Positions 1 to 12,242 of a DNA stretch of 15,255 nucleotides are shown here, one piece after another. Position numbers and translations under genes: made by a program. The notes below the pieces were generated by a model. The model had not been told where the DNA came from and did no database searches. It worked only from the letters and a program-made list of their open reading frames with translations. This stretch comes from an uncultured Actinomycetes bacterium. GTDB lineage: Bacteria; Actinomycetota; Acidimicrobiia; Acidimicrobiales; RAAP-2. The DNA is taken from the NCBI GenBank assembly GCA_903871335.1, contig CAIQGE010000038.1, forward strand, positions 1-15,255, written 5' to 3'. Position 1 is the first letter of the stretch. The number at the start of each line of letters is the position of its first letter.

Positions 1-141
1 GGTAGGGTCCGTGATCACGGGGGTTCTTCCAATCTGTAGGTGTAGAGAACCAACAGACTTGCAGAGCCCCCGCTCTTCGCTAACTCCTAAGCCACAACCG
101 ACCGATCAAATCTCAAAACCACGCGCAAATCCGAAGTTCCT
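1..141. repeat. Left terminal inverted repeat: exact reverse complement of 15115..15255 (141/141 identical). Contains the 12-bp perfect palindrome CCGTGATCACGG at 9..20.
   Basis: Base-by-base comparison of 1..141 against the reverse complement of the window end. The match breaks at 142 (a) versus 15114 (g). The short Pro-rich ORFs inside the repeat read inward identically from both ends. Confidence 0.95.
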
Positions 142-248
142 AATAACACTGTGTACGTCCTCCCGTGTCGACGACGCGACAGCCGAAAAATAGATTTTTG
201 CCATGGTACTAAGAACGGCGAGGAGTGCTCTGTCCGCGACGCGGGGGG

Positions 249-2123
249 TCAGGCCTTCGGGACCGCCGAGACCACGACAACCGAACTGGTGCCGGCGACA
301 TTGGTGGCTACCAACGTGATGTGCACCGCTACCTTGGCCGTCAACGCGCTGAAAGTGGCGCTCTTGGCCGAACTCGCTTCGTGGTACGTCTTCGTCGACT
401 TGCCCTGCTTCACGACGACGACGTAGGAACTCGCGGGACCGCCCGACGTAGCGGCCGTCCACTTGAGTGTCACAGACTTCACTCCACCGACCGCGCTGAC
501 GTGGGTGGGCGCCGCGGGCGCATTCACGGCGTTGAAAACAACCGCCGTGCCGGAAAGAACTTGGCCGTCATTACTGATCGAGGTCACCACGTAGGTGTAG
601 GACGTGCCTCCCATGACGGTGGTGTCCACGCAGGTGGTTGAGGAGGTGACGCAGACCGGCGTTCCCTCACCGGTTCGCTTCACGACGTAGGTCGAGATGC
701 CGGTTCCGATGATCGCGGGCGGGGCCCACGAGACGGTGGCACCGTGCGCGGAGGTTTGGGCGACGGTCACTTGCGTCACACCGTGGGGCAGCGCCATGTC
801 GTACTGCCCCACCACGGCCGCTTGCGCCCCGGATTGGTTGGAGACGTAGCCGGAGTACGTGCAGACGTAGGACGATACGCACGACAGCGTGTTGACGTAC
901 ATGTTCAAGGTGATTTGTCCGTCCAGGCCCGGAAGGACATCGGGGGTGTTCCACGCACCGTTGTCGTAGGTCCAAAAACCAGCGGCGTTCCCATTTGAAG
1001 AGGCGTAGTTTCCGGCAACGACACACGTGGTGGCACTGACACATGACAATGACGACGGCGTCTGGTTCACCGCGTTACTCGAATTCGGGCCGAGAGACTC
1101 CATTGCCGAGTTCCACTTCGTGCCGGTCATCGCGTCCACAAACGTCTCGGTGTACGGGAGGGGAGTGTGATTGTTGATGTAGCTGCCGGTGAGAAGACAC
1201 GATGTTGCGGAAAAGCACGTCGAGGAGAGGTGTCGGATAGCTGACGCGTTGCCGTTGGTCGTAGCGTCGCTCGGTAGAGGCAGGGCGACGGGAGTGCCGG
1301 GAACACCACTTGCGACCGGGATGACCATCGGAATTTCCAAGAAGCTGCCGGTCACGCGATATTCACCGAAGATGTTGCAGTCGGTGGTGTCCCAACAGGA
1401 GATCGAATAGGGAACCCAAAGGCCCGGGTCGAGGGAATTCGATGGTGCGGGCAGAACCTGGGGCGCGGCCCAACTCGTCCCGTTCCAAACGTCGTCGAAC
1501 GTCGCCACCGTGCTGTTCGCGGTGTCGTATTGACCAACGAGCAGGCAGAAGTTCGATGTCGTGCACTTGACGGTCAAGACATCACTGTGCGACGAGGAAC
1601 TCGCCGAGAGGTTGTTCGGGAGGGGCACATTCGTGACGAGCGCGTTGGGAATCCAGGCAATCGCGGCGGTCGTGGAAATTGTCAGAGTCGTGACGAAGGG
1701 GCGCAAACGTCCACCGGTGGTGTAACTACCGACCACCCAGCACGTGATGCCGGCGACGCACGAAATATCCGATGCCGTGACTGGGGTCGCGGTGGAGTTC
1801 GTCGCGTCGAGTGGACCTTCGATGCGCTGCGACGTCAGGACGCTGCCGTTGACGGTCACAACGACGTACGGCCTCGTGATGGCATTGGTGTCCTCGTAGG
1901 AGCCAATGGACATGCACGTCGAGTTGACGCACGACATCTTCGTCAACATTGCGTGGGAGTTGTCCGCTGCTCCACTCGGCAGCAAAGTCAGAGTGGGCAG
2001 GGATATCGTCCCGGTAGCGGCACCGGCACTGGTCACGACCGTGGCGCTCACGCCCGCGGCGAGCATCAGGCTCGCGGCGACGTAGCGCGTCAGACGACGT
2101 CGGATGGCGTATGACGTGTTCAT
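249..2123 (-). CDS. Secreted repeat protein: N-terminal signal peptide, seven ~45-55 aa blades each with a Cys pair (motif S-x-S-C-x4-6-C-x-[AV]-V-G-x-Y), and two C-terminal fibronectin-type-III-like domains. Likely cell-surface or extracellular beta-propeller plus Fn3 protein.
   Basis: The track ORF is 249..2219 (656 aa). An internal ATG at 2121..2123 is preceded by GGAGAAGATC and is followed by MNTSYAIRRRLTRYVAASLMLAAGVSATVVTSAGA, a typical Sec signal peptide. Seven motifs recur, including MSCVNSTCMSIGSY, ISCVAGITCWVVGSY, VKCTTSNFCLLVGQY, SISCWDTTDCNIFGEY, SSTCFSATSCLLTGSY, LSCVSATTCVVAGNY and LSCVSSYVCTYSGY. The C-terminus carries two Fn3-like modules (VSWAPP...YTYVVTSISNDGQVLSG and LKWTAAT...ITLVATNVAGTSS). 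Confidence 0.85.
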   Translation of the reverse strand: MNTSYAIRRRLTRYVAASLMLAAGVSATVVTSAGAATGTISLPTLTLLPSGAADNSHAMLTKMSCVNSTCMSIGSYEDTNAITRPYVVVTVNGSVLTSQRIEGPLDATNSTATPVTASDISCVAGITCWVVGSYTTGGRLRPFVTTLTISTTAAIAWIPNALVTNVPLPNNLSASSSSHSDVLTVKCTTSNFCLLVGQYDTANSTVATFDDVWNGTSWAAPQVLPAPSNSLDPGLWVPYSISCWDTTDCNIFGEYRVTGSFLEIPMVIPVASGVPGTPVALPLPSDATTNGNASAIRHLSSTCFSATSCLLTGSYINNHTPLPYTETFVDAMTGTKWNSAMESLGPNSSNAVNQTPSSLSCVSATTCVVAGNYASSNGNAAGFWTYDNGAWNTPDVLPGLDGQITLNMYVNTLSCVSSYVCTYSGYVSNQSGAQAAVVGQYDMALPHGVTQVTVAQTSAHGATVSWAPPAIIGTGISTYVVKRTGEGTPVCVTSSTTCVDTTVMGGTSYTYVVTSISNDGQVLSGTAVVFNAVNAPAAPTHVSAVGGVKSVTLKWTAATSGGPASSYVVVVKQGKSTKTYHEASSAKSATFSALTAKVAVHITLVATNVAGTSSVVVVSAVPKA

Positions 2124-2240
2124 GATCTTCTCCTGATGTGTCCAGGTTGGCCGGACGTGATTGGCTGGCATGCTAATTCCCGTGACGTGCCAGAGAGCAT
2201 CGCCAGAGGCAACGCTCACGCGTCAGGCCAGCGAAAATCC

Positions 2241-3635
2241 CTACGCCGTTGGTGCGTCGTTTGACGTCACGGACCCTTGAGGCGGGGTCGGTGACGCGGC
2301 GGACGAGTTGGAGATCGTCGTGCTCGTGGCCGACACGCTCTTTCGCAGCGCGTCGTAGATCGTGAGACCTTGTCCGACGATGCCGGAGACAATTTCGGTG
2401 ACTCCTTCGGTGCCGTTGAGCACCGTGAGGTTAGAGCCCTTGATCCCCTCGGCCGCAGCGGTCACGAGTTCGGGCAGTGCGTCGATCAACTTGTTGGCGG
2501 CGATGAGTGCCTGATTGCCTTCAGAGAGAGCGTCGGCGCGCATGTTGATGGCGGCCGCTTCGGCCTCGGCGACCGTGCGCTCGGCGTACGCGTCACCGTC
2601 GGCCTCGTGCTTCTTCGCTTGTGCGTCGGCCTCGGCGCGAATCTTCTCGGCTTCGGCGTTGGCCTCGGCCAATTTACGCAGTCGGTTGGCCTCGGCTTCG
2701 GTCTGGTAGTTGACCGTGTCGCGGCCGGCTTCGGCGATGGTGCGCTGACGGAAGGCGTCCGCTTCGGTCTCGGCTTTCACGCGGTCACGATTCGCATCAG
2801 CGAGGGTACGCGTCTTGTAGGCCTCGGCGTCCGCGGGACGGCGAACTTCGGATTCGAGGCGCTTGTCGGTGAGCTCGGCTTCCTTCTCGGCGAGGATCGT
2901 TTGCTGGGAAATGACGTCCTGGGTCGCCCGGGCCTGCGAGAGAGGTCCGGCCTGGGCGGCCGCGGCCTTGGCTTCTTCGATCTCCGCGTTGAAGCCGGCG
3001 GTCTTGATCTCGGTGTCACGCATGTACTGAGCCTTTAACGCCGCGGCGGTCTGCTCCTGCTGGGTGGCTTCCTGGTCCGCCTTGGCGCTGGCGATACGAG
3101 CCTGCGACGCAATGGCCGCGGCGTGAGGCGCCGCGATGTTGTCGATATAACCGGAGGAGTCTTCGATCTCTTGAATTTGAATCGAGTCAACGACGATGCC
3201 GAGCTTCTCCATCTCGCCGTGGCTGCCGTCCTTCACCTCTTGAGCGAGACGGTCGCGCTCACGAATGATCTCCTCGACGGTCAACGATCCGATGATCGAG
3301 CGAAGGTGACCCGCGAAGATACGGCCCACGAGTTCTTCCATGTTGTTCTGCTCGGCCAAGAAACGTCGAGCGGCGTTCGCAATGGATGCGGCGTCGTCAC
3401 CGATCTTGAAGGCGGCAATGGCGCGCACGTGGAGACGGATTCCCTGGGTCGTGATGCACTCCTCCGTGATCTCGGACTCGCGCAGCGAGAGGGAAAGATA
3501 GCGGGCCTTTTGCTTGATCGGAATAACGAAGCAACCGTGGCCGGTGACGATGCGAAATTGCGTGTCCTGATCACCGCGACGGGATCCGGAAATGAGCAGC
3601 GCCTCGTTCGGGGCGGGAACGTACCAGAACAGCAT
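2241..3635 (-). CDS. Flotillin-like SPFH/band-7 domain protein (YqiK/FloT type). It has a long Ala/Glu/Lys-rich coiled-coil region and an unusual Ser/Thr/Pro-rich C-terminal tail.
   Basis: The track ORF is 2241..3761. An internal ATG at 3633..3635 is preceded by GAGGAGACATC, an SD 4 nt upstream. It is followed by MLFWYVPAPNEALLISGSRRG...FRIVTGHGCFVIPIKQ...LSLSLRE, the N-terminus typical of bacterial flotillins. The SPFH core is then followed by a long AEAEA/KAE-rich repeat region, as in flotillins. Confidence 0.85.
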   Translation of the reverse strand: MLFWYVPAPNEALLISGSRRGDQDTQFRIVTGHGCFVIPIKQKARYLSLSLRESEITEECITTQGIRLHVRAIAAFKIGDDAASIANAARRFLAEQNNMEELVGRIFAGHLRSIIGSLTVEEIIRERDRLAQEVKDGSHGEMEKLGIVVDSIQIQEIEDSSGYIDNIAAPHAAAIASQARIASAKADQEATQQEQTAAALKAQYMRDTEIKTAGFNAEIEEAKAAAAQAGPLSQARATQDVISQQTILAEKEAELTDKRLESEVRRPADAEAYKTRTLADANRDRVKAETEADAFRQRTIAEAGRDTVNYQTEAEANRLRKLAEANAEAEKIRAEADAQAKKHEADGDAYAERTVAEAEAAAINMRADALSEGNQALIAANKLIDALPELVTAAAEGIKGSNLTVLNGTEGVTEIVSGIVGQGLTIYDALRKSVSATSTTISNSSAASPTPPQGSVTSNDAPTA

Positions 3636-3651
3636 GATGTCTCCTCGAGAG

Positions 3652-3870
3652 TCAGTACGGCGTGACGAGAACGGTGCGACCAGAAATGATCTCCACGACG
3701 ACGACGCGGGAGTTCTTCGTGATCTCCTCGTCCGCCAGGGCCTGATAGGCCTCGACGCCACCGCGAATGGGAATCATGACTTCGCCAGGGCGACCGTCAC
3801 TGATGGGGACCGACACACGGCCAATAGCGCCAACGACTTCTTGGCTCAATTCTTCCGACATGTTGGCCAA
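3652..3870 (-). CDS. Short NfeD-like protein containing only the C-terminal OB-fold beta-barrel, immediately upstream of the flotillin gene (nfeD-floT operon arrangement). No N-terminal membrane segment is present.
   Basis: The 72-aa ORF ends in the ...RVVVVEIISGRTVLVTPY beta-barrel motif typical of NfeD-short (YuaF-like) proteins. A TTG start at 3868..3870 is directly preceded by AAGGAGAT; the ATG three codons in is an alternative start. The gene ends 14 bp before the flotillin start. The yuaF-yuaG/nfeD-floT operon pairing is established knowledge. Confidence 0.6.
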   Translation of the reverse strand: MANMSEELSQEVVGAIGRVSVPISDGRPGEVMIPIRGGVEAYQALADEEITKNSRVVVVEIISGRTVLVTPY

Positions 3871-3924
3871 ATCTCCTTATATTGCTAAGCACCAACGTAG
3901 CCGTCCATCTTCCTTTGGGGCAAG

Positions 3925-3936
3925 GGTGAATTCACC
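3925..3936. promoter_or_regulatory. 12-bp perfect palindrome GGTGAATTCACC in the putative promoter region about 55 bp upstream of the nfeD-floT operon. Candidate operator for a dimeric regulator.
   Basis: Seen directly in the sequence. Its reverse complement is identical to itself. It lies in the 306-bp non-coding gap upstream (minus strand) of the nfeD start. Confidence 0.3.
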
Positions 3937-4176
3937 TCATAAACGGTCTCGAGTTCCGTCGCACCGACTCGAAGTGAAAGTGGCGAGTACGACGACAGTC
4001 ATCGAGTTGACGAGGCGATTGAAATCAGCGCGTCGCGCAGGAGGATTCCCGGACCGAAGGGTTCTGTGGCGTCGGTCGGTCCGCTGATGTCGAAGGTTCG
4101 CGATACCAGCAACGAGGGCGGGTGCCCATCACCTTCGGAACGTTTGGGAGGTGATTTATGGCTGCTGGCTTATGGT

Positions 4177-4458
4177 CTATTTGTCACGAGACCTTCGGAA
4201 GAGCGCGAGCATGACTCCGATCCATAGCGTTAGTGCACTCAGCCACAGCCATCCGGGTGCGTCGAGAACACTTGCGGCGTCAGCGGGTCGGCTGCAGGTT
4301 GAACCGTGACACGCGGACGAGAACGGTGAGATCAATTCGTGGTCGTAGTGATGAAGTGACTTTCCAATGGCGACGACCAGGACGAAGAGGACACATCCCC
4401 AGACGATTGAACACGCCGCGCGAACCATTAAGCGAGCCCGCGCCGCGTTCATGCTCAC
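4177..4458 (-). CDS. Small hypothetical membrane protein with two predicted TM helices and a Cys-containing loop (CHGSTC). It sits 48 bp downstream of the secreted BNR-propeller gene and may be co-transcribed with it.
   Basis: The 93-aa ORF has two hydrophobic stretches (SIVWGCVLFVLVVAIG and WLWLSALTLWIGVMLALF). It has a GTG start with a weak SD; an ATG two codons downstream is an alternative start. I recognise no homology. Confidence 0.3.
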   Translation of the reverse strand: MSMNAARARLMVRAACSIVWGCVLFVLVVAIGKSLHHYDHELISPFSSACHGSTCSRPADAASVLDAPGWLWLSALTLWIGVMLALFRRSRDK

Positions 4459-4506
4459 AAATATATGGACGCCCGCGACTGCAGTCTCTTACATACCGTC
4501 CGCGAT

Positions 4507-5649
4507 CTAGTGGGGCGTACCGCTCTGGGACCACGTGGAACCGGAATTGCGTGAGATCAAGGTTGTCGGGTGATACGGATCATTTCCAATGTCGCCCACC
4601 GCGATGCACGTTGGCAATTGGGCGCACGACAGACCGTTGATGTCCGCGAGATGAGGGGTCGTAACAACGCCGAAATGGACACCATTGCCACTTCCCAAGA
4701 ACTGGGTCAAGTCGGCGTACGACGTTGAAGCGGAATATCCGGTCGCGAAGCAGTGAGCGGCGCCCCAACAACCCACCCAGGCCAGTTGGTCAACGTCACG
4801 GGCGACGGGAACGCTCTTGAAGATTGATCCCGAGACCGTTGACAAGTACGCCACCGACGAAGCGAGGGAAGCGGACACGCCCACCTCGACGCAAAATGCA
4901 GCAGTGACGCACGTGGCACTGGTCAGCATTGAGGCGTGGACGAGGTCGTCGTGATCTAACCACGTGGCACCCCGGTCGGTGGTGGTGGACATGGCGCCCA
5001 CCTGTCCCGATATCTGACCATCCGCACCGACGAGAAGACAGCTTCCTGACGGCAGGCACGACACGCTTTCGGCGATGGAAATATTGAAGGGCAGCGTCTG
5101 GCTGTGCCACGTCTTCCCGCCGTCGAGACTTTGCAGTTCAACACCCGACGTGATCAAGGAGCCGTCGGTGGTTGGCACGTAGTGGAGTCCGGAGGCTTGA
5201 CACCAGGTCGGTGTCGGGCAGGTCACCGAGAGCAGCTTGGAGGCGATCGCGGGAACGGCCACGCGGTGCCAGGTTGCGCCGCCGTCGGCGCTGAGGATAA
5301 TGACACCAGCGGTCACCTTGGTGTTGTAGCCAACGGCGACACACGTCGTGCGGGACGCACACGCCACCGCACTGAATCCACCGGCTCCGGCGGGCACCGT
5401 GACACGCGCCCACGATGCTGAATGATCTTTCGACCGGTAGATGGCGGTACCGGAATTCGATGAGAGACCCACCTGTGCACCGCTCGCGAGGCAGTCAGTA
5501 GTTGACGGGCAGGCGATGGATGTCATGGTGCCATCGAGGGGTGCGACACGCGGTGCGACCGATCTCGCGGTGGCGGCGCCCGACGCAAAGTTCGCGGACG
5601 CGGCTACCGCCAGTATGAGAATTCCCGCCAACCATTTCAATCGCTGCAT
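4507..5649 (-). CDS. Secreted seven-bladed BNR (Asp-box) beta-propeller-like protein. Each blade carries both a Cys pair (S-x-x-C-x5-C-x-A-x-G) and an Asp-box-like motif (S-x-D-G-G-x-T-W). It has a Ycf48-like or sialidase-like propeller architecture.
   Basis: The track ORF is 4507..5733. An internal ATG at 5647..5649 is preceded by GAGGGAGCTTGCA and starts MQRLKWLAGILILAVAASANFASGAATA, a signal peptide. Seven Cys-pair motifs are present: SIACPSTTDCLASG, VACASRTTCVAVG, SVTCPTPTWCQASG, SVSCLPSGSCLLVG, SATCVTAAFCVEVG, VGCWGAAHCFATG and LSCAQLPTCIAVG. Asp-box-like motifs are SADGGATW, SLDGGKTW, TTDRGATW and SRNSGSTW. Confidence 0.8.
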   Translation of the reverse strand: MQRLKWLAGILILAVAASANFASGAATARSVAPRVAPLDGTMTSIACPSTTDCLASGAQVGLSSNSGTAIYRSKDHSASWARVTVPAGAGGFSAVACASRTTCVAVGYNTKVTAGVIILSADGGATWHRVAVPAIASKLLSVTCPTPTWCQASGLHYVPTTDGSLITSGVELQSLDGGKTWHSQTLPFNISIAESVSCLPSGSCLLVGADGQISGQVGAMSTTTDRGATWLDHDDLVHASMLTSATCVTAAFCVEVGVSASLASSVAYLSTVSGSIFKSVPVARDVDQLAWVGCWGAAHCFATGYSASTSYADLTQFLGSGNGVHFGVVTTPHLADINGLSCAQLPTCIAVGDIGNDPYHPTTLISRNSGSTWSQSGTPH

Positions 5650-5779
5650 TGCAAGCTCCCTCTGTTCGAAGTCGTCGGCCGTCTCATTACCGGACAAACG
5701 CAAGATTTCAAATCGGCAACGTCGTGCCATCACTTTGCCACGACCACGCCCGGTCGAGGTTGCGGAAATGTCGAGAAAC

Positions 5780-6301
5780 TCAGTGAGGCGACGTCGTCGA
5801 TGCGCGTCGTGTCGCTCCGCGACCCGGTCGAACAGTCACGTCACGAACGGTGAGGTCGTGTCCTTCCGTGCACCGCACAGAAACGGTTACCGCCGACCCG
5901 CAGGCGCTGTGTGATAACTCGACCGGCGGACCCTCGGGAGCGAGCCACTTGTCGCCCCATTGCATGAGGGCAACGACCGGGACGAAGGCGTCGCGACCCA
6001 TGTCGGTAAGTCGGTAGGCGAGCCTTTCCCGATCGCCGGCGTCTTGGTACGGCACGCGCGTGAGAAGTCCTTCTTCGACGAGGTGTCGTAGTTCATTCGC
6101 GACGACCGGTTCACTCAGTCCCGTCCGCCGAACGAATTCGTCAAAACGCGTGCTTCCGTAATACGCCTCGCGCAGAAGCAACATGTTCGAGCGCTTCCCG
6201 ATCAACTTGACGGCACGGTCCATCGAGCACGCCGCAGCCGACCAGGCGTCGCGATCGTGCAGGGCAGTGGTGAAGCGAACACGGTCGGGTGTGTCAGACA
6301 T
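5780..6301 (-). CDS. HxlR-family (DUF24/MarR-like winged-helix) transcriptional regulator. It has an N-terminal Cys in the position of the redox-sensing Cys of YodB/HypR-type members and an unusual ~55-aa C-terminal extension.
   Basis: The sequence ...AACSMDRAVKLIGKRSNMLLLREAYYGSTRFDEFVRRTGLSEPVVANELRHLVEEGLLTR... is the hallmark HxlR HTH region. The track ORF starts at TTG 6308..6310. I prefer the ATG at 6299..6301 (MSDTPDR), which has TAGGAGAT about 10 nt upstream. The gene is divergent from the MFS gene with only ~40 bp between the start codons. Confidence 0.8.
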   Translation of the reverse strand: MSDTPDRVRFTTALHDRDAWSAAACSMDRAVKLIGKRSNMLLLREAYYGSTRFDEFVRRTGLSEPVVANELRHLVEEGLLTRVPYQDAGDRERLAYRLTDMGRDAFVPVVALMQWGDKWLAPEGPPVELSHSACGSAVTVSVRCTEGHDLTVRDVTVRPGRGATRRASTTSPH

Positions 6302-6341
6302 AACTTGCAATCTCCTAAGTCAGAGCGTAGGGTCTCTCACT

Positions 6342-7766
6342 ATGGAAAGCCTAAGTCATCCGCAGGATCGACCGCGAGCGGTACTGATCGTTCTGTGCGC
6401 CGCCGCCTTCATGGCGTCACTCGATTTGTTCATCGTCAATGTGGCCTTCACCAGTATTGGGCACGACTTCCATCAGCACACGTACGCGAACTTGAGCTGG
6501 ATCCTCAACGGTTACGCCATCATCTATGCCGCTCTCCTCATCCCACTGGGGCGACTCGCCGATCGCTACGGACTGAAGGCTGGATTCCTGCTCGGACTCG
6601 GTGTCTTCACGGCGGCGAGCGTCGGGTGCGCGTTGAGTGGATCGCTATGGATCCTGGTGGGCTTTCGAGTCCTGCAAGCCACGGGAGCCGCCGCGCTCAC
6701 GCCCACGAGTCTCGGGCTTCTTCTGAACGCGTATCCGGCCGAGAAGAGGTCGGGTGCCGTTCGTATCTGGTCCGCCGTCAGCGCCATGGCCGCTGCCATC
6801 GGTCCTGTCATGGGTGGCGTTCTCGTACAGCACTCCTGGCGCTGGGTATTCCTCGTCAATCTGCCGCTGGGCATCGTTGCGCTGATCGCTGCGATCATCG
6901 TTGTTCCCGACCACAAGAACACGACTGAAAGCTTGTTGCCCGACCTCGTGGGGGCCGTGGTTCTCGCGGTGGCCATTGGCGCATTGGCGCTGGGTCTCGT
7001 GAAGGCGCCGGCGTGGGGCTGGACGTCACAGCACACCATCGTGTCCTTCGCCGTCTCCTTCGGCGGGATCATTGTGTTCGCCCTTCAAAGCCGTCGTCAT
7101 CCGGCCCCGGTGATTGATCCCGTCTTACTGAAAGTTCGGACATTTTCGTGGGCCAATGCGACGAGCCTTATGTTCGCCGTGGCGTTCGCGTCGAATCTCC
7201 TGATCGCCATCTTGTGGATGCAGAACATCTGGCACTTCTCGCCGGTTCGGACAGGACTGTCGGTGGCCCCAGGACCATTGATGGTTCCCGGGTTCGCGAT
7301 CTTGGGCGGTCATTTCGTTCGCCGGTATGGTCCCGGACTAGTGACGACCGCCGGTTGTGTGTGCTTCGCCTGCGGCGTCGGGCTCTCGCAATTGCTGTTG
7401 GGCTCCTCGCCGCAGTACTTTTCCGAGATGTTCCCCGCGCAGATCATCACCGGCATCGGCGTCGGCCTCGCGCTGCCCACGATTCTGTCGTCGGCCACGG
7501 CTGATCTTCCTCTCGCCAGGTCCGCGACCGGGAGCGCGATTGTCAACATGAGTCGTCAGATCGGCAGCGTGATCGGTGTGAGTGTGTTGATCGCGTTACT
7601 CGGTACGCCCACCACCTACGCGGCTGCCGCACGTGGCTTCCAACACGCGCGCCTTGCCTGCATTATCGCGGCGCTCGTGGCCGCACTGACGGCGGTCGGA
7701 ATGACCTCGAAGACGTGGTCCAGGATCCCACGCACCGAATCGATGGTGGCCGAGGTGTCCTTGTGA
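6342..7766 (+). CDS. Major facilitator superfamily transporter. Its 14-TMS DHA2 (EmrB/QacA-like) topology suggests a drug or metabolite:H+ antiporter.
   Basis: The track ORF is 6183..7766. The ATG at 6342 (MESLSHPQDRPRAVLIVLCAAAFMASLDLFIVNVAF) lies ~14 aa before TMS1, as is usual. The MFS signature GRLADRYGLK and many hydrophobic helices are present. The stop TGA is immediately followed by cgATG of the next gene. Confidence 0.85.
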   Translation: MESLSHPQDRPRAVLIVLCAAAFMASLDLFIVNVAFTSIGHDFHQHTYANLSWILNGYAIIYAALLIPLGRLADRYGLKAGFLLGLGVFTAASVGCALSGSLWILVGFRVLQATGAAALTPTSLGLLLNAYPAEKRSGAVRIWSAVSAMAAAIGPVMGGVLVQHSWRWVFLVNLPLGIVALIAAIIVVPDHKNTTESLLPDLVGAVVLAVAIGALALGLVKAPAWGWTSQHTIVSFAVSFGGIIVFALQSRRHPAPVIDPVLLKVRTFSWANATSLMFAVAFASNLLIAILWMQNIWHFSPVRTGLSVAPGPLMVPGFAILGGHFVRRYGPGLVTTAGCVCFACGVGLSQLLLGSSPQYFSEMFPAQIITGIGVGLALPTILSSATADLPLARSATGSAIVNMSRQIGSVIGVSVLIALLGTPTTYAAAARGFQHARLACIIAALVAALTAVGMTSKTWSRIPRTESMVAEVSL

Positions 7767-7768
7767 CG

Positions 7769-8560
7769 ATGGGGTCTTTCGCCCGCGCGACGGCAGTGAC
7801 CTTTCGTGATGGACGTTACGAAGGAGAGATTCAGCCCCGATGGGACATCGCCGGTGACGCGAATGGTGGCTACCTCATGGCGATTGTCGCTCGAGCATTG
7901 TTGGACATGACGAGTCGAAGTGATCCCATCACGGTGACCGCTCACTTCTTGTCTCCTGGTCGTCCAGGTCGGGTGAGCATCGAAACGCACGAGGTCAAGT
8001 CCGGACGTCGGTTCGCCACGGCCACCGCGACGCTGCACAGTGAGGATCGTCCACTTCTCACGGTGTTGGGCACTTTTGGAGACCTACGGGAGACGAGTGT
8101 CCCGTTACGCGTTGACGGGACGCCGCCTGACGTACCTCCCCTCGACGAGTGCGTTCCCGTGATTGCCACCGAGACTTTTCCGCCTCCCTTCATGGGTCAA
8201 GTGGAACTTCGACTCCACCCAGACCAGGACCTCTCACCTCGTGCTCGATCCATCGGCAAGTCGGAGATCTCCGGTTGGTTTCGCTTGCGTGACGACGAGG
8301 AGATCACGACCACCGCGTTGCTGTGTGCGCTAGACGCTTTTCCGCCCACGATCTTCAACACCGATCTTCCGGTGGCGTGGACACCGACCATCGAACTCAC
8401 CGCACACCTGCGAGCTCGTCCCGTCCCCGGCTGGTTGCGATGTCGCTTTACGACGCGATTCATTACCGCCGGCATGCTCGAAGAAGACGGTGAGATTTGG
8501 GACGAGAGCGGCACCCTGGTGGCTCAGTCACGGCAGTTAGCACTGGTCCCACAGTCGTGA
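7769..8560 (+). CDS. Thioesterase-superfamily protein: a TesB-like double hot-dog acyl-CoA thioesterase family member.
   Basis: MGSFARATAVTF...WDIAGDANGGYLMAIVARAL... resembles the N-terminus of thioesterase-like double hot-dog proteins. The gene is 263 aa, the right size. The start ATG at 7769 is coupled to the MFS stop (TGAcgATG). The alternative GTG at 7715 would overlap the MFS gene by 52 bp. Confidence 0.65.
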   Translation: MGSFARATAVTFRDGRYEGEIQPRWDIAGDANGGYLMAIVARALLDMTSRSDPITVTAHFLSPGRPGRVSIETHEVKSGRRFATATATLHSEDRPLLTVLGTFGDLRETSVPLRVDGTPPDVPPLDECVPVIATETFPPPFMGQVELRLHPDQDLSPRARSIGKSEISGWFRLRDDEEITTTALLCALDAFPPTIFNTDLPVAWTPTIELTAHLRARPVPGWLRCRFTTRFITAGMLEEDGEIWDESGTLVAQSRQLALVPQS

Positions 8561-8686
8561 CCTTCACGTAGGAACCCCCGCACCAACTTCTTGTTGAACG
8601 CAGACCTCTGTTTTGCGGTCCTTTCTCGTCGTCGTAAACTGAAGCGTCGCGGGAGGAACGTGTACGTCTGCTCGAGCGTTGAAGAA

Positions 8687-9478
8687 ATGTTGACTCTCGA
8701 GAGAGTCGACGCCACGATTTTCCGCGGACAAAATGGTCCCGCGAGCCCGCGGCAGGCCCTTTACGGTGGCCAAGTGGCGGCGCAGTGCTTGATGGCGGCG
8801 GCGGCGACGGTGCCCGAAGGTAGATCTCCTCACTCACTGCACGGCTACTTCCTGCGACCGGGATCCGTCGACTTACCCGTCGTCATGGAAGTGGACCTCG
8901 ACCGTGATGGTCGAAGTTTCTCCGCTCGCCACGTCAACGCTCTCCAGAACGGGAAAGTGATCTTCTCGATGGTGGCCTCTTTTCACGAAGAGCGCCCGGA
9001 ACCTTCCTTTGACGCCGCGCCACGGCGAGAGGTTCCCGAGCCCAAGAAGGATCCGTCGTCGCACAGCTGGAACACGATCATCGACGTGATGGACGTCACG
9101 CCGTTCGACCTCGCGACCGGACGGTTCCCGGACTGTATGTGGGTCAAGACGACCGATCCTTTACCGAACGACCCCATCATGAATGCGGGTGCCTTGGTCT
9201 TCCTCTCGGATCTTGGTTCAGGTTTCGGGCAGGTAGATGCGGGACTTTCGGGACGCGGGGGTCCCAGCATCGATCACGCGATGTGGTTCCAGGAACCCAT
9301 TCGGGCCGATGAGTGGGTTCTCCTCGACCTCATTCCCGTCAAGGCATGGTCGGCGCGCGGGACCTATCACGGCTCGCTTCGCGATCAGAGCGGACGCCTC
9401 GGAGCCACGGTGTACCAGGAACATCTTCTGCTCCCCATGTCGGCACTTCGGCCTACTTCCCCGAGCCCAAACCCATAG
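8687..9478 (+). CDS. tesB: Acyl-CoA thioesterase II (TesB).
   Basis: MLTLERVDATIFRGQN...PRQALYGGQVAAQCLMAA...HSLHGYFLRPG...VDLDRDGRSFSARHVNALQNGKVIFSMVASFH aligns by eye with the E. coli TesB N-terminal hot-dog domain (LLTLLNLEKIEEGLFRGQS...FGGQVVGQAL...HSFHSYFLRPG...[21 protein letters not shown]). The start could alternatively be GTG 8661, which sits after GGGAGGAAC. Confidence 0.85.
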   Translation: MLTLERVDATIFRGQNGPASPRQALYGGQVAAQCLMAAAATVPEGRSPHSLHGYFLRPGSVDLPVVMEVDLDRDGRSFSARHVNALQNGKVIFSMVASFHEERPEPSFDAAPRREVPEPKKDPSSHSWNTIIDVMDVTPFDLATGRFPDCMWVKTTDPLPNDPIMNAGALVFLSDLGSGFGQVDAGLSGRGGPSIDHAMWFQEPIRADEWVLLDLIPVKAWSARGTYHGSLRDQSGRLGATVYQEHLLLPMSALRPTSPSPNP

Positions 9479-9597
9479 TTCCGTCGGGCCCATTTGAGCG
9501 CTGGATGTCGCAAAATCCGAACGTTCACGGGATGAATACTTTTTGTCCTACAGTGTCGTTTTGAGACCGATTTATCGAGCGGAACCCGGAGATAAAT

Positions 9598-11934
9598 ATG
9601 CAAGCCACCCGACCACTACTTAGATTCGGGCTGTGTACCGCGCTTGTGGTTTCAATCGGAACATTCGCGCTGACGCTGTCGGCAAGCGCGGTTCCCACTA
9701 GCTACTTGCCGCTTTACGGCACGACCGTGCCGGCCTCGTCGGCCACAACGGGAACCGGACAATTGAGTTCGATTAGTTGTGTGGACGCCACGCATTGTGA
9801 ATCGGTTGGCCTCTACGCAACGAACAACACTGGACCGCTGGGTGTCTACGCCCAGAGCATCGTCGCGGGAGTTGCCGGAACCCCGACGGCTCTTGCGTCG
9901 GGCGCGGATGATGCCAGTACGGCGCCTTCGATTTCCTGCTTTGACGCGAACGATTGTGTCGCTGTATTCGCCGTTGGTTCCGGCACCACCGCGACGACTG
10001 ACGTCGCCACGGAAACTTCAGGCTCGTGGTCAGTGACTTCGCCCTTCAGCGCACAAACTTTGGCGCAGGGAATTTCGTGCGTTGCGGCCTCGTCATTTTG
10101 CGCGGTCGTAGGTGAGTTGACGAACTCCAACCGTGCTTTCGGTGTCACCTTGTCCGCCGGCGCTTGGGGGACGATGCAGACCATTAATGACGTAGGTTCC
10201 CCGACGCACTCCACTGACTTGGTCAGTGTGTCGTGTTGGAGTGTTGGTAATTGCATGGCCGCGGGAAATTTCAATGTGGGAGCACCTTCGTATTTCGGAC
10301 GGTCTCCATTCGTTGCTGGACTGTCCAGCGGTTCGTGGATCGCAACACCTGGCGGCGGTTCCAATTCAGGCACCAATTCGTCGAGCTACAACTCGATTTC
10401 CTGTCCCTCCGCGACAACCTGTTTGACCGCTGGCACGTCTAATGGCATTGCGTTCACCCAAGAGTTCTACGGAACTCGCTGGTATTCGATAGATCTCGTT
10501 CAGCTGCCTACGAATTCGTACGTTCTATCCAACGCTTCGAGCGTGTCGTGCGTCGATGCGAGCGATTGCGTCGTCGTCGGTTCGTATCAAACTCAAACGC
10601 TGGGCGAACAAGCCTTCTATGGTTCAGACTCCATTACCAACGGCGATCTCAATGGCAATGTCCATGCAAATGTTGTCACCTCGCCTTATTCCGGCACCAT
10701 TGACCCCGTGGGCGTTCAGGCCTACTTGAATTCCGTTTCGTGTCCTTCGACATCGAATTGTGAGTTTGTGGGTAGTTACAACACGGACATCAATAGCGAT
10801 CCCACCCTGCCGGCATTTGGTGGTTCAGGAACGCCTCCTCCGAGCGCGCCGACCTCCCTGTCAGCCCTGCCCGGGAATCACTCGATCACGGTGTCCTGGT
10901 CCGCTCCGCTAGCGAATGGAAGTCCGAGCCCCACGAGTTACACGGCGTACGCCGGATCGAATTCGTGCACGACCAAGGGCCTCAGCTGTACGGTCACCGG
11001 TCTTATCAACGGCCAGACGTATCAAGTCACGGCTGCTGCTTCGAACGCCAAGGGTCAAGGGCCCGTTGCGGACGCAATCTCAGGATTTGCTGCCGGAGTT
11101 CCCGACCCGCCCACTGTCGTCTCGGTGGTACCGGGAGCGAAGTCCGCGCTCGTGACGATCGCTCCTCCGGCAAATAACAACGGCGCGCCAGTGACGAGCT
11201 ACACCTATTACTGGGCGGTTGGATCAAAGGTAACGATGGCGGGTTCCATCACTGGTCTGTCGTGGGATCTCGCTGGACTACCAAACGGCGCGACCGTTAG
11301 TTTCTACGCCACGGCGACGAATGTCACCGGTGCGAGCGCGCCGGCAACGCCCGTGACCGTCACGTTGCCCGAGCTAGCTGGTGCGCCCACCAACGTGGTA
11401 GCTATTGGAGCGGCGTCGACAATCACGGTGAGTTGGAACGCCAGTACCTTGGGCGCCACGGCGACCAGTTACACGGCGACCGCTACCGAACCTTCATTTG
11501 AGGGGTCTGGTTCTTTCACCTGCACAACTACAACAACCACTTGCACGATTACGGGTCTCGGCCTCCACAAGTCATTTTCTGTGACCGTCGCGGCGAACAA
11601 TGCCGTTGGGTCGAACGCGTCGAACAGCGTGCAGACATTTACAACCACCTCTCCAGTCGGGCCCCCTGGTGCAGTGACGGCTCTGACGGCGAAGGGCAGC
11701 AAGACCTCAATTGCCTTGAAGTGGAAGGCACCCAAGAATCACGGCGCGGGTATTGGGAATTACATCGTCTACGAGTACGTGAGTTCTGCCTGGGTGCAGG
11801 TGGCCACACCCGTCCTTGCGAATGTCAGTATTTCAAAGCTGTCGTCAAAGACGAGCTACAAGTTTGAGGTCGTGTCCTACGCGATGGACGGTCAAACTTC
11901 CAAGCCCGTCACCGTATCCAGCAAAACAACCTGA
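9598..11934 (+). CDS. Secreted repeat protein: signal peptide, seven Cys-pair blades (C-x5-6-C) and four tandem fibronectin-type-III domains. It is a paralog of the 249..2123 and 4507..5649 products.
   Basis: The ATG at 9598 is preceded by GGAGATAAAT. The signal peptide is MQATRPLLRFGLCTALVVSIGTFALTLSASA. First Cys of the pairs fall at aa 61, 114, 161, 213, 269, 318 and 382, a period of ~47-64 aa. Motifs include SISCVDATHCESVG, SISCFDANDCVAV, ISCVAASSFCAVVG, VSCWSVGNCMAAG, SISCPSATTCLTAG, SVSCVDASDCVVVGSY and SVSCPSTSNCEFVGSY. Four ~90-aa Fn3-like modules run from about nt 10850 to the stop. Confidence 0.9.
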   Translation: MQATRPLLRFGLCTALVVSIGTFALTLSASAVPTSYLPLYGTTVPASSATTGTGQLSSISCVDATHCESVGLYATNNTGPLGVYAQSIVAGVAGTPTALASGADDASTAPSISCFDANDCVAVFAVGSGTTATTDVATETSGSWSVTSPFSAQTLAQGISCVAASSFCAVVGELTNSNRAFGVTLSAGAWGTMQTINDVGSPTHSTDLVSVSCWSVGNCMAAGNFNVGAPSYFGRSPFVAGLSSGSWIATPGGGSNSGTNSSSYNSISCPSATTCLTAGTSNGIAFTQEFYGTRWYSIDLVQLPTNSYVLSNASSVSCVDASDCVVVGSYQTQTLGEQAFYGSDSITNGDLNGNVHANVVTSPYSGTIDPVGVQAYLNSVSCPSTSNCEFVGSYNTDINSDPTLPAFGGSGTPPPSAPTSLSALPGNHSITVSWSAPLANGSPSPTSYTAYAGSNSCTTKGLSCTVTGLINGQTYQVTAAASNAKGQGPVADAISGFAAGVPDPPTVVSVVPGAKSALVTIAPPANNNGAPVTSYTYYWAVGSKVTMAGSITGLSWDLAGLPNGATVSFYATATNVTGASAPATPVTVTLPELAGAPTNVVAIGAASTITVSWNASTLGATATSYTATATEPSFEGSGSFTCTTTTTTCTITGLGLHKSFSVTVAANNAVGSNASNSVQTFTTTSPVGPPGAVTALTAKGSKTSIALKWKAPKNHGAGIGNYIVYEYVSSAWVQVATPVLANVSISKLSSKTSYKFEVVSYAMDGQTSKPVTVSSKTT

Positions 11935-12065
11935 GATCGCAGTATCTCGGCTCGTTGGATTTGCGAAGGAACAGGACTTCGTGGTGGAAGTGCCGTCACC
12001 AGCCAATCGGCACTGCGCCGGATCGAGATGGTGCATGACTCCGGACGCGGGTAGCAGGTCGAGGC

Positions 12066-12086
12066 GCTTCACCGTGTGAAGCCTTT
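12066..12086 (+). terminator. Candidate intrinsic terminator for the Fn3 gene: 7-bp GC-rich stem GCTTCAC/GTGAAGC with a 3-nt loop followed by CTTT.
   Basis: The hairpin was read directly from the sequence. The U-tract is short, which is common in high-GC genomes but lowers confidence. Confidence 0.3.
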
Positions 12087-12242
12087 GAGAGGGTTGCACG
12101 TCTGTCTCGGCGACATTGACGAGTAAGAACCGCGACCCTACCGAGGTGTGGTTCGTCACATTCGGGCCTTGCAAAATTCACCAAAGTCATTGGTCCGTGT
12201 GGGCACGCTGTTCTACGCTGCGGAAGAGCCGAGGAGGTCGCC

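What the first reader, a model, noticed from the sequence alone, without database searches (positions are those of the whole stretch)
249..11934. Paralogous family of three secreted seven-bladed repeat proteins with one conserved Cys pair per blade
Three genes (249..2123 -, 4507..5649 -, 9598..11934 +) encode signal-peptide proteins, each with exactly seven repeats of ~45-55 aa. The repeats are built around [LV]-S-[SV]-[IV]-S-C-x4-6-C-x-[AV]-V-G-x-Y. The first Cys of successive pairs are spaced 47-64 aa apart. Seven blades and an even Cys count imply a seven-bladed beta-propeller stapled by one disulfide per blade. I do not recognise this as a named domain family. The proteins are Asn/Ser/Thr/Gly-rich, with many N-x-S/T triplets, which is unusual for a high-GC genome. 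The two large members carry 2 and 4 C-terminal Fn3 domains, an adhesin-like or glycan-binding surface architecture. Three copies in 12 kb, two of them in inverted orientation near the two window ends, suggests a locally expanded and possibly diversifying family.
Basis: seen in the sequence. Interest (0 to 1): 0.8.

Follow-up and report, generated by a model that had tools for sequence, protein, structure and literature searches.

The report
Cysteine-stapled seven-bladed propeller proteins
Three secreted proteins of an uncultured peat/bog actinobacterium are seven-bladed beta-propellers with one conserved cysteine pair per blade, and they belong to a very large but uncurated branch of the well-known Asp-box (BNR/Ycf48-like) propellers, so the architecture is real but is a variant of a known kind.

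Summary

B is a sub-threshold Asp-box/Ycf48-like propeller. A and C keep only a G-x-W remnant and match no Pfam or NCBIfam model, but their family profile aligns blade-in-register with B's (hhalign 99.9%, E=1.4e-33). In Ycf48 the Cys columns align with a conserved F...W aromatic pair.

The family is very large: 38,299 50%-identity cluster representatives, usually with 7 or 14 blades. In 104 relatives, 95% of cysteines lie in such pairs.

Not supported: sequon enrichment, recent local expansion (24-28% identity over aligned regions; B and C+D absent from a sister lineage) and diversifying selection (dN/dS 0.15). The disulfides and the function are inferred. The most likely role is a non-enzymatic binding scaffold, because only blade-periodic structural residues are conserved. 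Verdict: new variant of a known kind, moderate interest.

The parts
249..2123 (-). Gene A, 624 aa: signal peptide, then a Cys-stapled seven-bladed propeller, then two Fn3 domains
   Evidence: ORF. Same 624-aa gene call on L001/L002. 99%, 88% and 59% orthologs P0001-3.
2019..2123 (-). A residues 1-35: Sec-type signal peptide (MNTSYAIRRRLTRYVAASLMLAAGVSATVVTSAGA|A)
   Evidence: Read from the sequence. Model pLDDT is below 50 for residues 1-36. No predictor was run.
789..2015 (-). A residues 37-445: seven-bladed beta-propeller. Cys pairs at 65/70, 122/128, 187/193, 243/249, 303/309, 361/367 and 415/421.
252..788 (-). A residues 446-624: two Fn3 domains. The first carries its own C-x6-C pair (C491/C498).
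   Evidence: PF00041 at 34.7 bits for the whole protein. The separate halves score 23.9 and 25.8 bits. Cys positions.
4507..5649 (-). Gene B, 380 aa: signal peptide, then a Cys-stapled seven-bladed Asp-box (Ycf48-like) propeller with no extra domains
   Evidence: ORF. Identical protein P0028 occurs on 35 contigs. Sub-threshold BNR, Sortilin-Vps10 and PSII_BNR hits.
4510..5538 (-). B residues 38-380: propeller. Cys pairs at 47/53, 97/103, 144/150, 198/204, 247/253, 294/300 and 342/348. Four regex-matching Asp-boxes (73-80, 120-127, 174-181, 223-230) and a fifth recognisable by eye (SRNSGSTW, 366-373).
   Evidence: AF2 pLDDT 82.8, pTM 0.83. Foldseek to Ycf48 5ojr/2xbg, E=2.5e-11, TM 0.72. Family profile against PDB: Ycf48 E=3.8e-11, GH74 E=5e-11.
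9598..11934 (+). Gene C, 778 aa: signal peptide, then a Cys-stapled seven-repeat propeller domain, then four Fn3-sized modules
   Evidence: ORF. Same 778-aa gene call on L001-L003.
9745..10842 (+). C residues about 50-415: seven repeats. Cys pairs at 61/67, 114/120, 161/168, 213/219, 269/275, 318/324 and 382/388. Homologous to A's propeller.
   Evidence: blastp against A's N-domain gives 26% identity over 443 columns, E=6e-13. Aligned in A1 with all Cys columns invariant. C was not modelled separately.
10843..11931 (+). C residues 416-778: Fn3, an undetected Fn3-sized module, Fn3, Fn3. C-x6-C pairs at 457/464 and 642/649.
   Evidence: PF00041 at 83.9 bits. Per-module scores are 34.6, none, 36.6 and 32.9 bits.

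Best explanation
A, B and C are exported proteins of an uncultured Acidimicrobiaceae-type actinobacterium. Their propeller domains belong to one ancient superfamily, a cysteine-stapled branch of the Asp-box (BNR, Ycf48/sortilin/GH74-type) beta-propellers.

Each domain is a closed ring of seven four-stranded blades. In every blade the innermost hairpin (strand 1, a 4-6 residue turn, strand 2) is bracketed by two invariant cysteines. After Sec export into the oxidising cell envelope, these most likely form a cross-strand disulfide. In canonical Ycf48 blades the same two positions hold a conserved aromatic pair (F...W), so a hydrophobic contact has been replaced by a covalent staple. B keeps the Asp-box (S-x-D-G-G-x-T-W) in the strand-3/strand-4 loop. 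A and C keep only its G-x-W end.

Across the family only blade-periodic structural residues are conserved (S-C, C, A-V-G, Y, G-x-W, P). No catalytic-type residue is conserved. The propellers are therefore best read as rigid, stabilised scaffolds whose variable loops bind a ligand, either a glycan or a protein. In A and C, two to four Fn3 modules act as a stalk or spacer.

The three genes are old, divergent paralogs sitting in variable slots of the genome. They are not a recent tandem expansion.

Shown here: the genes, the repeats, Cys conservation and parity, the predicted fold, homology among the three families and to Asp-box propellers, the family size, and the gene turnover. Inferred: export, the disulfide bonds, and the non-enzymatic binding role.
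For: - Seven Cys pairs per protein.
- The Cys columns are invariant in 41- and 29-sequence alignments, and the other conserved columns are only the periodic G, W, A, V, Y, S and P.
- 95% of 1,908 Cys in 104 relatives lie in C-x4-7-C pairs. 99 of 104 have an even Cys count after N-terminal orphans are removed. Most Cys outside these pairs come in twos 20-70 aa apart; in the sequences read, such as P0042, the second Cys starts the usual C-x-V-V-G, so these look like the same pair with an expanded loop.
- Confident AF2 models have 7 x 4 strands, with each pair flanking the first hairpin.
- hhalign of the A/C family against the B family gives 99.9% probability, E=1.4e-33, over 306 columns in blade register.
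- The B-family profile hits Ycf48 (3.8e-11), GH74 (5e-11) and sialidases in the PDB, with Cys1 aligned to F and Cys2 to W or F of Ycf48 blades.
- Relatives carry 7, 8 or 14 pairs.
- No FRIP motif and no LPXTG.
- Published precedents for disulfide-stapled extracellular propellers: CRINKLY4 (bioRxiv 10.1101/2020.08.10.245050) and PfCyRPA, a non-enzymatic sialidase fold with one Asp-box (PMC5349852).
- From my own knowledge, not checked here: Actinobacteria are reported to make extensive use of disulfides in exported proteins.
Against: - No coordinates were available, so no S-S distance was measured. No experimental redox data exist.
- C was not modelled. Its fold is inferred from homology to A.
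- A's and C's link to Asp-box propellers rests on the profile-profile match to B's family, which is itself partly driven by the shared Cys motif, and on fold similarity. The A/C profile alone hits no PDB sequence.
- B scores below every curated Pfam and NCBIfam threshold.
- Lack of family-wide conserved polar residues does not exclude lineage-specific active sites. The closest folds include many glycoside hydrolases, and Fn3 modules are common in secreted actinobacterial glycanases.
- No ligand, anchor or operon partner points to what is bound.
Confidence: 0.62

Rival explanations
1. They are secreted carbohydrate-active enzymes (GH33 sialidase-like, GH74-like, or a new glycoside hydrolase or lyase family) acting on peat or plant polysaccharides. 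The propeller would be the catalytic domain and the Fn3 modules would be linkers.
For: - The nearest folds and profiles include GH74 xyloglucanases and sialidases.
- B has a weak hit to the NCBIfam 'F510_1955 family glycosylhydrolase' model (E=1e-5).
- The 14-blade relatives mimic the two-propeller GH74 layout.
- The organism lives in peat, bog or soil.
Against: - No FRIP motif or equivalent.
- No conserved Asp, Glu, Arg, Tyr or His column in either family alignment at 70% or more, apart from two of B's Asp-box aspartates, which are structural.
- All enzyme-family scores are far below cut-off, for example 24.9 against 175 bits.
- A, B and C each have a single propeller, not a GH74-type pair.
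- Charged-residue content is very low.
Confidence: 0.2
2. The cysteine pairs are not structural disulfides. Instead they would be functional thiols: metal-binding or redox-active sites arranged as a ring of seven around the propeller axis.
For: - The pairs are invariant even where everything else varies.
- In the models they sit at the innermost hairpins, so seven pairs would lie near the central channel.
Against: - The proteins carry signal peptides and would fold in an oxidising compartment.
- Each site has only two Cys and no conserved His, Asp or third Cys nearby.
- The pair tolerates loops from 4 to about 65 residues, as expected for a loop-closing disulfide and not for a chelate.
- In Ycf48 the same positions hold a buried aromatic pair, which is a structural role.
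- Precedents in CRINKLY4 and CyRPA are structural disulfides.
Confidence: 0.06
3. This is the first reader's evolutionary reading: a recently and locally expanded, diversifying paralog family, with three copies generated within this 12-kb region and under positive selection.
For: - Three members lie within 12 kb.
- A evolves 2-8 times faster at non-synonymous sites than its neighbours.
- B, C and D lie in slots that differ between related genomes.
Against: - Pairwise identity is only 24-28% over aligned regions, and B differs in sub-type (Asp-box) and architecture (no Fn3).
- dN/dS is 0.13-0.18, which is purifying selection.
- Unrelated housekeeping genes separate the copies.
- The best relatives of each copy are found in other organisms rather than being each other.
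- The pattern fits independent residence or acquisition in variable islands.
Confidence: 0.05

Closest known systems
Ycf48/HCF136 and 'photosystem II stability/assembly factor-like' proteins (Pfam PF14870 PSII_BNR; PDB 2xbg, 5ojr, 8am5)
   Same: Both are seven-bladed Asp-box propellers of about 330-380 aa. Ycf48 is the best sequence and fold match for B. The blade register is identical: strand 1, turn, strand 2 (G-x-A-V-G), then the Asp-box between strands 3 and 4.
   Different: Canonical Ycf48 has an F...W aromatic pair where B, A and C have Cys...Cys. B scores 25 bits against the 326-bit equivalog cut-off. The host is a non-photosynthetic-type Acidimicrobiaceae with no PSII context. A and C have lost the Asp-box and gained Fn3 tails.
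Asp-box/BNR propeller supercluster: sialidases GH33, GH74 xyloglucanases, the sortilin Vps10 domain (Quistgaard and Thirup 2009, as cited in PMC9218822)
   Same: Same blade type and motif position. The profile and fold matches are significant. The 14-blade relatives parallel the GH74 double propeller.
   Different: Sialidases have six blades plus a FRIP motif and Arg triad, which are absent here. GH74 has two propellers and catalytic aspartates. None of these families has one Cys pair per blade.
CRINKLY4 (ACR4/PpCR4) ectodomain propeller
   Same: [quoted passage not shown]
   Different: It is a plant receptor kinase with a WD40/RCC1-like blade type and a buried N-terminal strand. No sequence relationship was detected or expected, so this is convergent design.
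Plasmodium falciparum CyRPA
   Same: A sialidase-type propeller with a single residual Asp-box, sequential intra-blade disulfides in five of six blades, and a purely non-enzymatic binding role. It is the closest functional analogy for A and C.
   Different: It is eukaryotic and has six blades. Its disulfide positions and sequence are unrelated.
CylK C-terminal propeller (PDB 7ron/7roo)
   Different: Only 8% identity. CylK is a Ca-dependent Friedel-Crafts alkylating enzyme with an N-terminal domain that forms the active site, and it has no Cys-pair repeat.

Membership tests
Asp-box / BNR beta-propeller superfamily | S-x-D-x-G-x-T-W (Asp-box) motif recurring in the loop between strands 3 and 4 of the blades | tested here: inconclusive
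   B has four regex matches plus one more recognisable by eye and two degenerate copies, located between model strands 3 and 4, so the feature is met for B. A and C have no full motif, only G-x-W remnants at the same position (W157, W218, W337 and W391 in A), so it is not met for A and C.
Asp-box / BNR beta-propeller superfamily | Score above the curated Pfam gathering thresholds (PF02012 BNR, PF13088 BNR_2, PF15902 Sortilin-Vps10, PF14870 PSII_BNR) | tested here: not met
   B scores 25.1 against 27, 24.6 against 31.4, 30.9 against 33 and 22.6 against 27 bits. A and C have no hit at E<=1.
Asp-box / BNR beta-propeller superfamily | Significant profile-level homology to solved Asp-box propellers | tested here: met
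   The B-family profile hits Ycf48 at 3.8e-11 and GH74 at 5.3e-11, and 49 PDB sequences in all at E<=1e-3. The A/C family has no direct PDB hit but matches the B family at hhalign 99.9%, E=1.4e-33.
Asp-box / BNR beta-propeller superfamily | Closed beta-propeller of four-stranded antiparallel blades | tested here: met
Ycf48/HCF136 photosystem II assembly factor (orthologs) | Equivalog-level similarity (NCBIfam NF010237, cut-off 326 bits) | tested here: not met
   B scores 25.3 bits. A and C have no hit.
Ycf48/HCF136 photosystem II assembly factor (orthologs) | Occurrence in an oxygenic phototroph with photosystem II | tested here: not met
   The flanking flotillin gene places the window in Acidimicrobiaceae/Acidimicrobiales MAGs. 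No photosystem genes appear within the roughly 20 kb of context read on the related contigs.
GH33 sialidase | Six blades with a FRIP motif and arginine triad | tested here: not met
   There are seven repeats or blades. No [FYW]R[IVL]P motif occurs in A, B or C, and no Arg column is conserved.
GH74 xyloglucanase | Two tandem seven-bladed propellers forming a cleft with two catalytic Asp | tested here: not met
   A, B and C each have one propeller. The 14-pair relatives do have the double layout, but their catalytic residues were not examined.
Fibronectin type III (PF00041) | Score above the Pfam gathering threshold (25 bits) | tested here: met
   A scores 34.7 bits with two stretches and C scores 83.9 bits with three. 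C's second module, residues 506-595, is undetected.
Disulfide-stapled extracellular propellers (CRINKLY4 / CyRPA type), an analogy rather than a homologous family | One intra-blade disulfide in (nearly) every blade, shown experimentally | not testable with these tools
   Model coordinates were not retrievable. The support is indirect: Cys invariance, Cys parity, and the hairpin-flanking positions in the DSSP maps.
Pfam DUF6087 (PF19565) / DUF2510 (PF10708) | A domain-level match to the model | tested here: not met
   A, B and C have no hit. Only W-N-G-type distant relatives pass the whole-protein threshold, by summing fragments with zero individually significant stretches.

The most novel reading that the evidence does not exclude
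The Cys-stapled propeller would be a distinct, major and so far uncurated lineage of the Asp-box supercluster, with tens of thousands of sequence clusters, 7-, 14- and up to about 41-blade arrays, and at least three sub-types. It would form a principal repertoire of variable, exported recognition modules in Actinomycetota and neighbouring phyla. On this reading, swapping the buried F...W pair for a disulfide was the key innovation that let blade surfaces diversify freely. A, B and C would be island-borne members involved in strain-specific surface recognition, for example of phages, neighbouring cells or polymers.
Probability: 0.3. Interest if true: 0.55.

Novelty: new variant of a known kind. 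Interest (0 to 1): 0.38.

Why it matters
It shows that a very large set of exported bacterial proteins is invisible to Pfam and NCBIfam. The profile found about 38,000 cluster representatives at E<=1e-3 and about 13,000 at E<=1e-30. These proteins can nevertheless be explained as Asp-box propellers in which an aromatic pair has been replaced by a loop-closing cysteine pair in every blade.

Practical consequences:
- A new family model could be built, which would improve annotation of actinobacterial and peat or soil metagenomes.
- It gives a natural example of blade stapling that is relevant to propeller design.
- It offers candidates for strain-variable surface-recognition proteins.

It does not reveal a new fold, a new mechanism or a function.

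Tried and rejected
- **Sequon enrichment or N-glycosylation signal.** Shuffling shows no excess. Rejected.
- **Diversifying selection.** Nei-Gojobori dN/dS for A against its 88% ortholog is 0.15, with the propeller at 0.13. Rejected as gene-wide positive selection. Site-level tests were not possible with two sequences.
- **Duplicated two-gene cassette (A + NHL protein, C + D).** D and the NHL-repeat neighbour of A show no significant similarity, E=0.32. Dropped.
- **Conserved synteny of A-like genes next to flotillin.** None was found in nine species-level relatives with usable flanks, L007-L015.
- **Genome-collection scans.** The scan with protein A found no relative among GTDB species representatives.
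- **Model coordinates.** Not exposed to scripts, so Cys-Cys distances were not measured.
- **Defence-system and phage libraries.** No hits for A to D.
- **Cluster-member look-up for names and organisms.** It yielded only 'hypothetical protein' or 'photosystem II stability/assembly factor-like'.
- **Literature.** No paper mentions DUF6087, and no paper combines Ycf48, BNR, Actinobacteria and non-photosynthetic. The propeller survey PMC9218822 does not mention cysteines or disulfides.
- **Tat export for A (RRRL).** Judged by eye to be a poor Tat motif. Not tested.
Full report
**1. What is in the sequence.**
The window (56-65% GC) contains the three ORFs exactly as described:
- A: 249-2123 (-), 624 aa.
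- B: 4507-5649 (-), 380 aa.
- C: 9598-11934 (+), 778 aa.

Independent gene calls on identical metagenome contigs give the same lengths. Each protein has exactly seven C-x(4-6)-C pairs at regular spacing (first-Cys spacing 47-65 aa).

A and C also have C-x6-C pairs inside their Fn3 domains, and C has one Cys in its signal peptide, so the totals are 16, 14 and 19 Cys. All three N-termini read as Sec signal peptides. That is sequence inspection only; the models give these residues pLDDT below 50.

A has two Fn3 domains. C has three detectable ones plus one Fn3-sized module with no hit. N-x-S/T sequons are no more frequent than composition predicts.

**2. Are the three related, and to what?**
- A and C are homologous along the whole N-domain but distant (26% identity, E=6e-13).
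- B is only marginally similar to either by BLAST (E about 1e-4).
- B has sub-threshold hits to BNR, Sortilin-Vps10 and PSII_BNR. It matches Ycf48-like proteins and sialidases in the PDB by sequence.
- A's and C's N-domains hit nothing in Pfam, NCBIfam or the PDB.

Database searches found relatives of all three, and nearly all carry 7, 8 or 14 Cys pairs about 50 aa apart. They fall into three sub-types:
- Asp-box type (B-like, often labelled 'photosystem II stability/assembly factor-like').
- W-N-G-T-x-W type (about 700 aa, 14 blades).
- A type with neither motif (A and C).

In alignments of 41 A/C-type and 29 B-type sequences, the Cys columns are the invariant ones. The two family profiles align blade-in-register at hhalign probability 99.9%, E=1.4e-33. 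The B-family profile hits Ycf48 (3.8e-11), GH74 xyloglucanase (5e-11) and many sialidases.

In that alignment the first Cys column falls on the Phe, and the second on the Trp or Phe, of the Ycf48 blade motif ...VSF-x5/6-(W/F)-x-x-G. The Cys pair therefore replaces a conserved aromatic pair at the same hairpin.

**3. Structure.**
AlphaFold2 with these alignments gave confident models:
- A N-domain: pLDDT 83.7, pTM 0.84.
- B: pLDDT 82.8, pTM 0.83.

Both are all-beta, with seven units of four strands. In all 14 cases the two cysteines sit at the end of one strand and the start of the next. Examples are A C65/C70 between E59-66 and E69-78, and B C47/C53 between E41-46 and E53-58. The Asp-box or G-x-W lies before the fourth strand, as in known Asp-box propellers.

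- Foldseek places B nearest Ycf48 (E=2.5e-11, TM 0.72), then GH74, sortilin, CylK and sialidases.

Three indirect observations support it:
- 95% of 1,908 Cys in 104 relatives lie in such pairs, against 21.5% in shuffles.
- 99 of 104 proteins have an even Cys count after N-terminal orphans are removed.
- Most Cys outside these pairs come in twos 20-70 aa apart. In the sequences read (for example P0042) the second Cys starts the usual C-x-V-V-G, so these look like the same pair with a greatly expanded loop.

**4. Family size and curation status.**
An exhaustive profile search of 1.84 billion cluster representatives (50% identity) found:
- 38,299 proteins at E<=1e-3.
- 27,220 at E<=1e-10.
- 13,312 at E<=1e-30.

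The best 150 carry 8-41 pairs, with a mode of 14. One is a 3,727-aa giant. Consensus-like members have no Pfam or NCBIfam domain. The W-N-G sub-type only gets summed, fragmentary hits to DUF6087 and DUF2510. I found no paper describing the repeat. The count may include some ordinary Asp-box propellers at the weak end, because only the top 150 could be inspected.

**5. Genomic and evolutionary context.**
The flotillin gene next to A is 77-84% identical to those of Acidimicrobiaceae and Acidimicrobiales MAGs from peat, palsa and Danish soils. The same locus recurs identically in several metagenomes.

In a sister lineage whose A is 88% identical, the flotillin, HxlR, MFS and thioesterase genes and A itself are syntenic. 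B's slot there holds a 104-aa ORF, a 418-aa unknown and a DUF2510 protein, and the C+D slot holds small ORFs. Nine species-level relatives with usable flanks have no Cys-pair propeller within 10 kb of flotillin. A has no relative among GTDB species representatives.

A's dN/dS against the 88% ortholog is 0.15 (propeller 0.13, Fn3 0.18), compared with 0.02-0.07 for five neighbouring genes. That is purifying selection, but relaxed.

The three genes are therefore old, divergent family members sitting in variable slots. They are not a recent local expansion, and nothing here shows diversifying selection.

**6. Function.**
The only columns conserved at 70% or more in either family are the periodic structural residues: S-C, C, A-V-G, Y, G-x-W and P, plus some Asp-box positions in B's family. 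There is no FRIP motif, no conserved catalytic-type residue and no LPXTG anchor. There were no defence-system or phage-family hits.

The most economical reading is a rigid, covalently stapled scaffold with variable binding loops, carried on Fn3 spacers in A and C. Published precedents for the design are CRINKLY4, with seven blades each stabilised by a disulfide, and PfCyRPA, a sialidase fold with one Asp-box, five intra-blade disulfides and no enzymatic activity.

An enzymatic role as a glycoside hydrolase remains a real alternative, at about 0.2, given the fold neighbours and the habitat.

**7. Verdict.**
The 'seven-bladed, one Cys pair per blade' interpretation is well supported at the level of prediction. 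The claims of an unrecognised fold, sequon richness and local diversifying expansion are not supported.

This is a new variant of a known kind: a Cys-stapled, partly Asp-box-degenerate lineage of Asp-box propellers that is very large but uncurated. It is of moderate interest, mainly for annotation and for propeller evolution and design.

Noticed in passing
window 1-149 (- strand); full gene at L001:15107-16975: Directly downstream of A, running off the left end of the window, is a 622-aa secreted NHL-repeat propeller protein (PF01436, 83.6 bits, 4 stretches; also SGL and SBBP). This is a second, unrelated propeller type next to the Cys-stapled one, and it is conserved next to A in the 88% sister lineage.
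   Followed up: partly
window 12243-14063 (+): Protein D is 606 aa, has a signal-peptide-like N-terminus and only 3 Cys, and sits immediately downstream of C. It has no hit in Pfam, NCBIfam, PADLOC or PHROGs. It has a faint NHL-like motif (IDSSGHVWIVSSTGDLYES) but is not significantly similar to the NHL neighbour of A (E=0.32). It is absent, together with C, from the sister lineage.
   Followed up: partly
window 4507-5835 and 9565-14063, compared with L004:5735-8055 and L004:366-1827; also L002:1-650: The slots holding B and C+D are variable between close relatives. In L004-L006 they are replaced by a 104-aa ORF, a 418-aa protein of unknown function and a DUF2510 protein (B slot), and by 75-, 130- and 155-aa ORFs (C+D slot). 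One strain (L002) has a Transposase_mut gene about 1 kb beyond D.
   Followed up: partly
window 636-659 (A C491/C498, - strand); 10966-10989 and 11521-11544 (C C457/C464 and C642/C649): Three of the Fn3 domains carry their own C-x6-C pair (CVTSSTTC, CTTKGLSC, CTTTTTTC). This suggests the same hairpin-stapling strategy is used outside the propeller.
   Followed up: no
relatives P0042, P0047, P0049, P0059 (B-type): In one blade the two cysteines are separated by a 50-70-residue Pro/Thr/Ser/Ala-rich insertion instead of 5 residues (for example P0042 C249...C314), yet both Cys are kept. This looks like a disulfide-closed, low-complexity loop displayed from the propeller.
   Followed up: partly
relatives P0004-P0021, P0068, P0077, P0086 (about 700 aa, 14 blades): Every blade carries W-N-G-T/S-x-W at the Asp-box position, which is a perfectly conserved N-x-T/S sequon. 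These proteins pass the Pfam whole-protein thresholds for DUF2510 and DUF6087 only by summing fragments, so those Pfam models may partly overlap this repeat.
   Followed up: partly
representatives P0140 (3,727 aa, 41 Cys pairs), P0146, P0148, P0155: There are giant multi-propeller members of the family with up to seven matched stretches. P0136 adds C-terminal repeats with a weak ZirU-family hit. None is annotated.
   Followed up: no
window-wide: proteins A, B, C, D: Charged-residue content is unusually low (D+E 4.0-6.6%, K+R 2.6-4.2%) while S+T+G+A+N is high, and the predicted pI is 4.4-5.7. This may be an adaptation of exported proteins to acidic peat or bog water.
   Followed up: no
window 7763-8560 and 8687-9478 (+): There are two tandem acyl-CoA thioesterase II-type genes (4HBT_3 / 4HBT_3C) between the MFS transporter and C. 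Both are conserved in the sister lineage, with very different dN/dS values (0.057 and 0.019).
   Followed up: no
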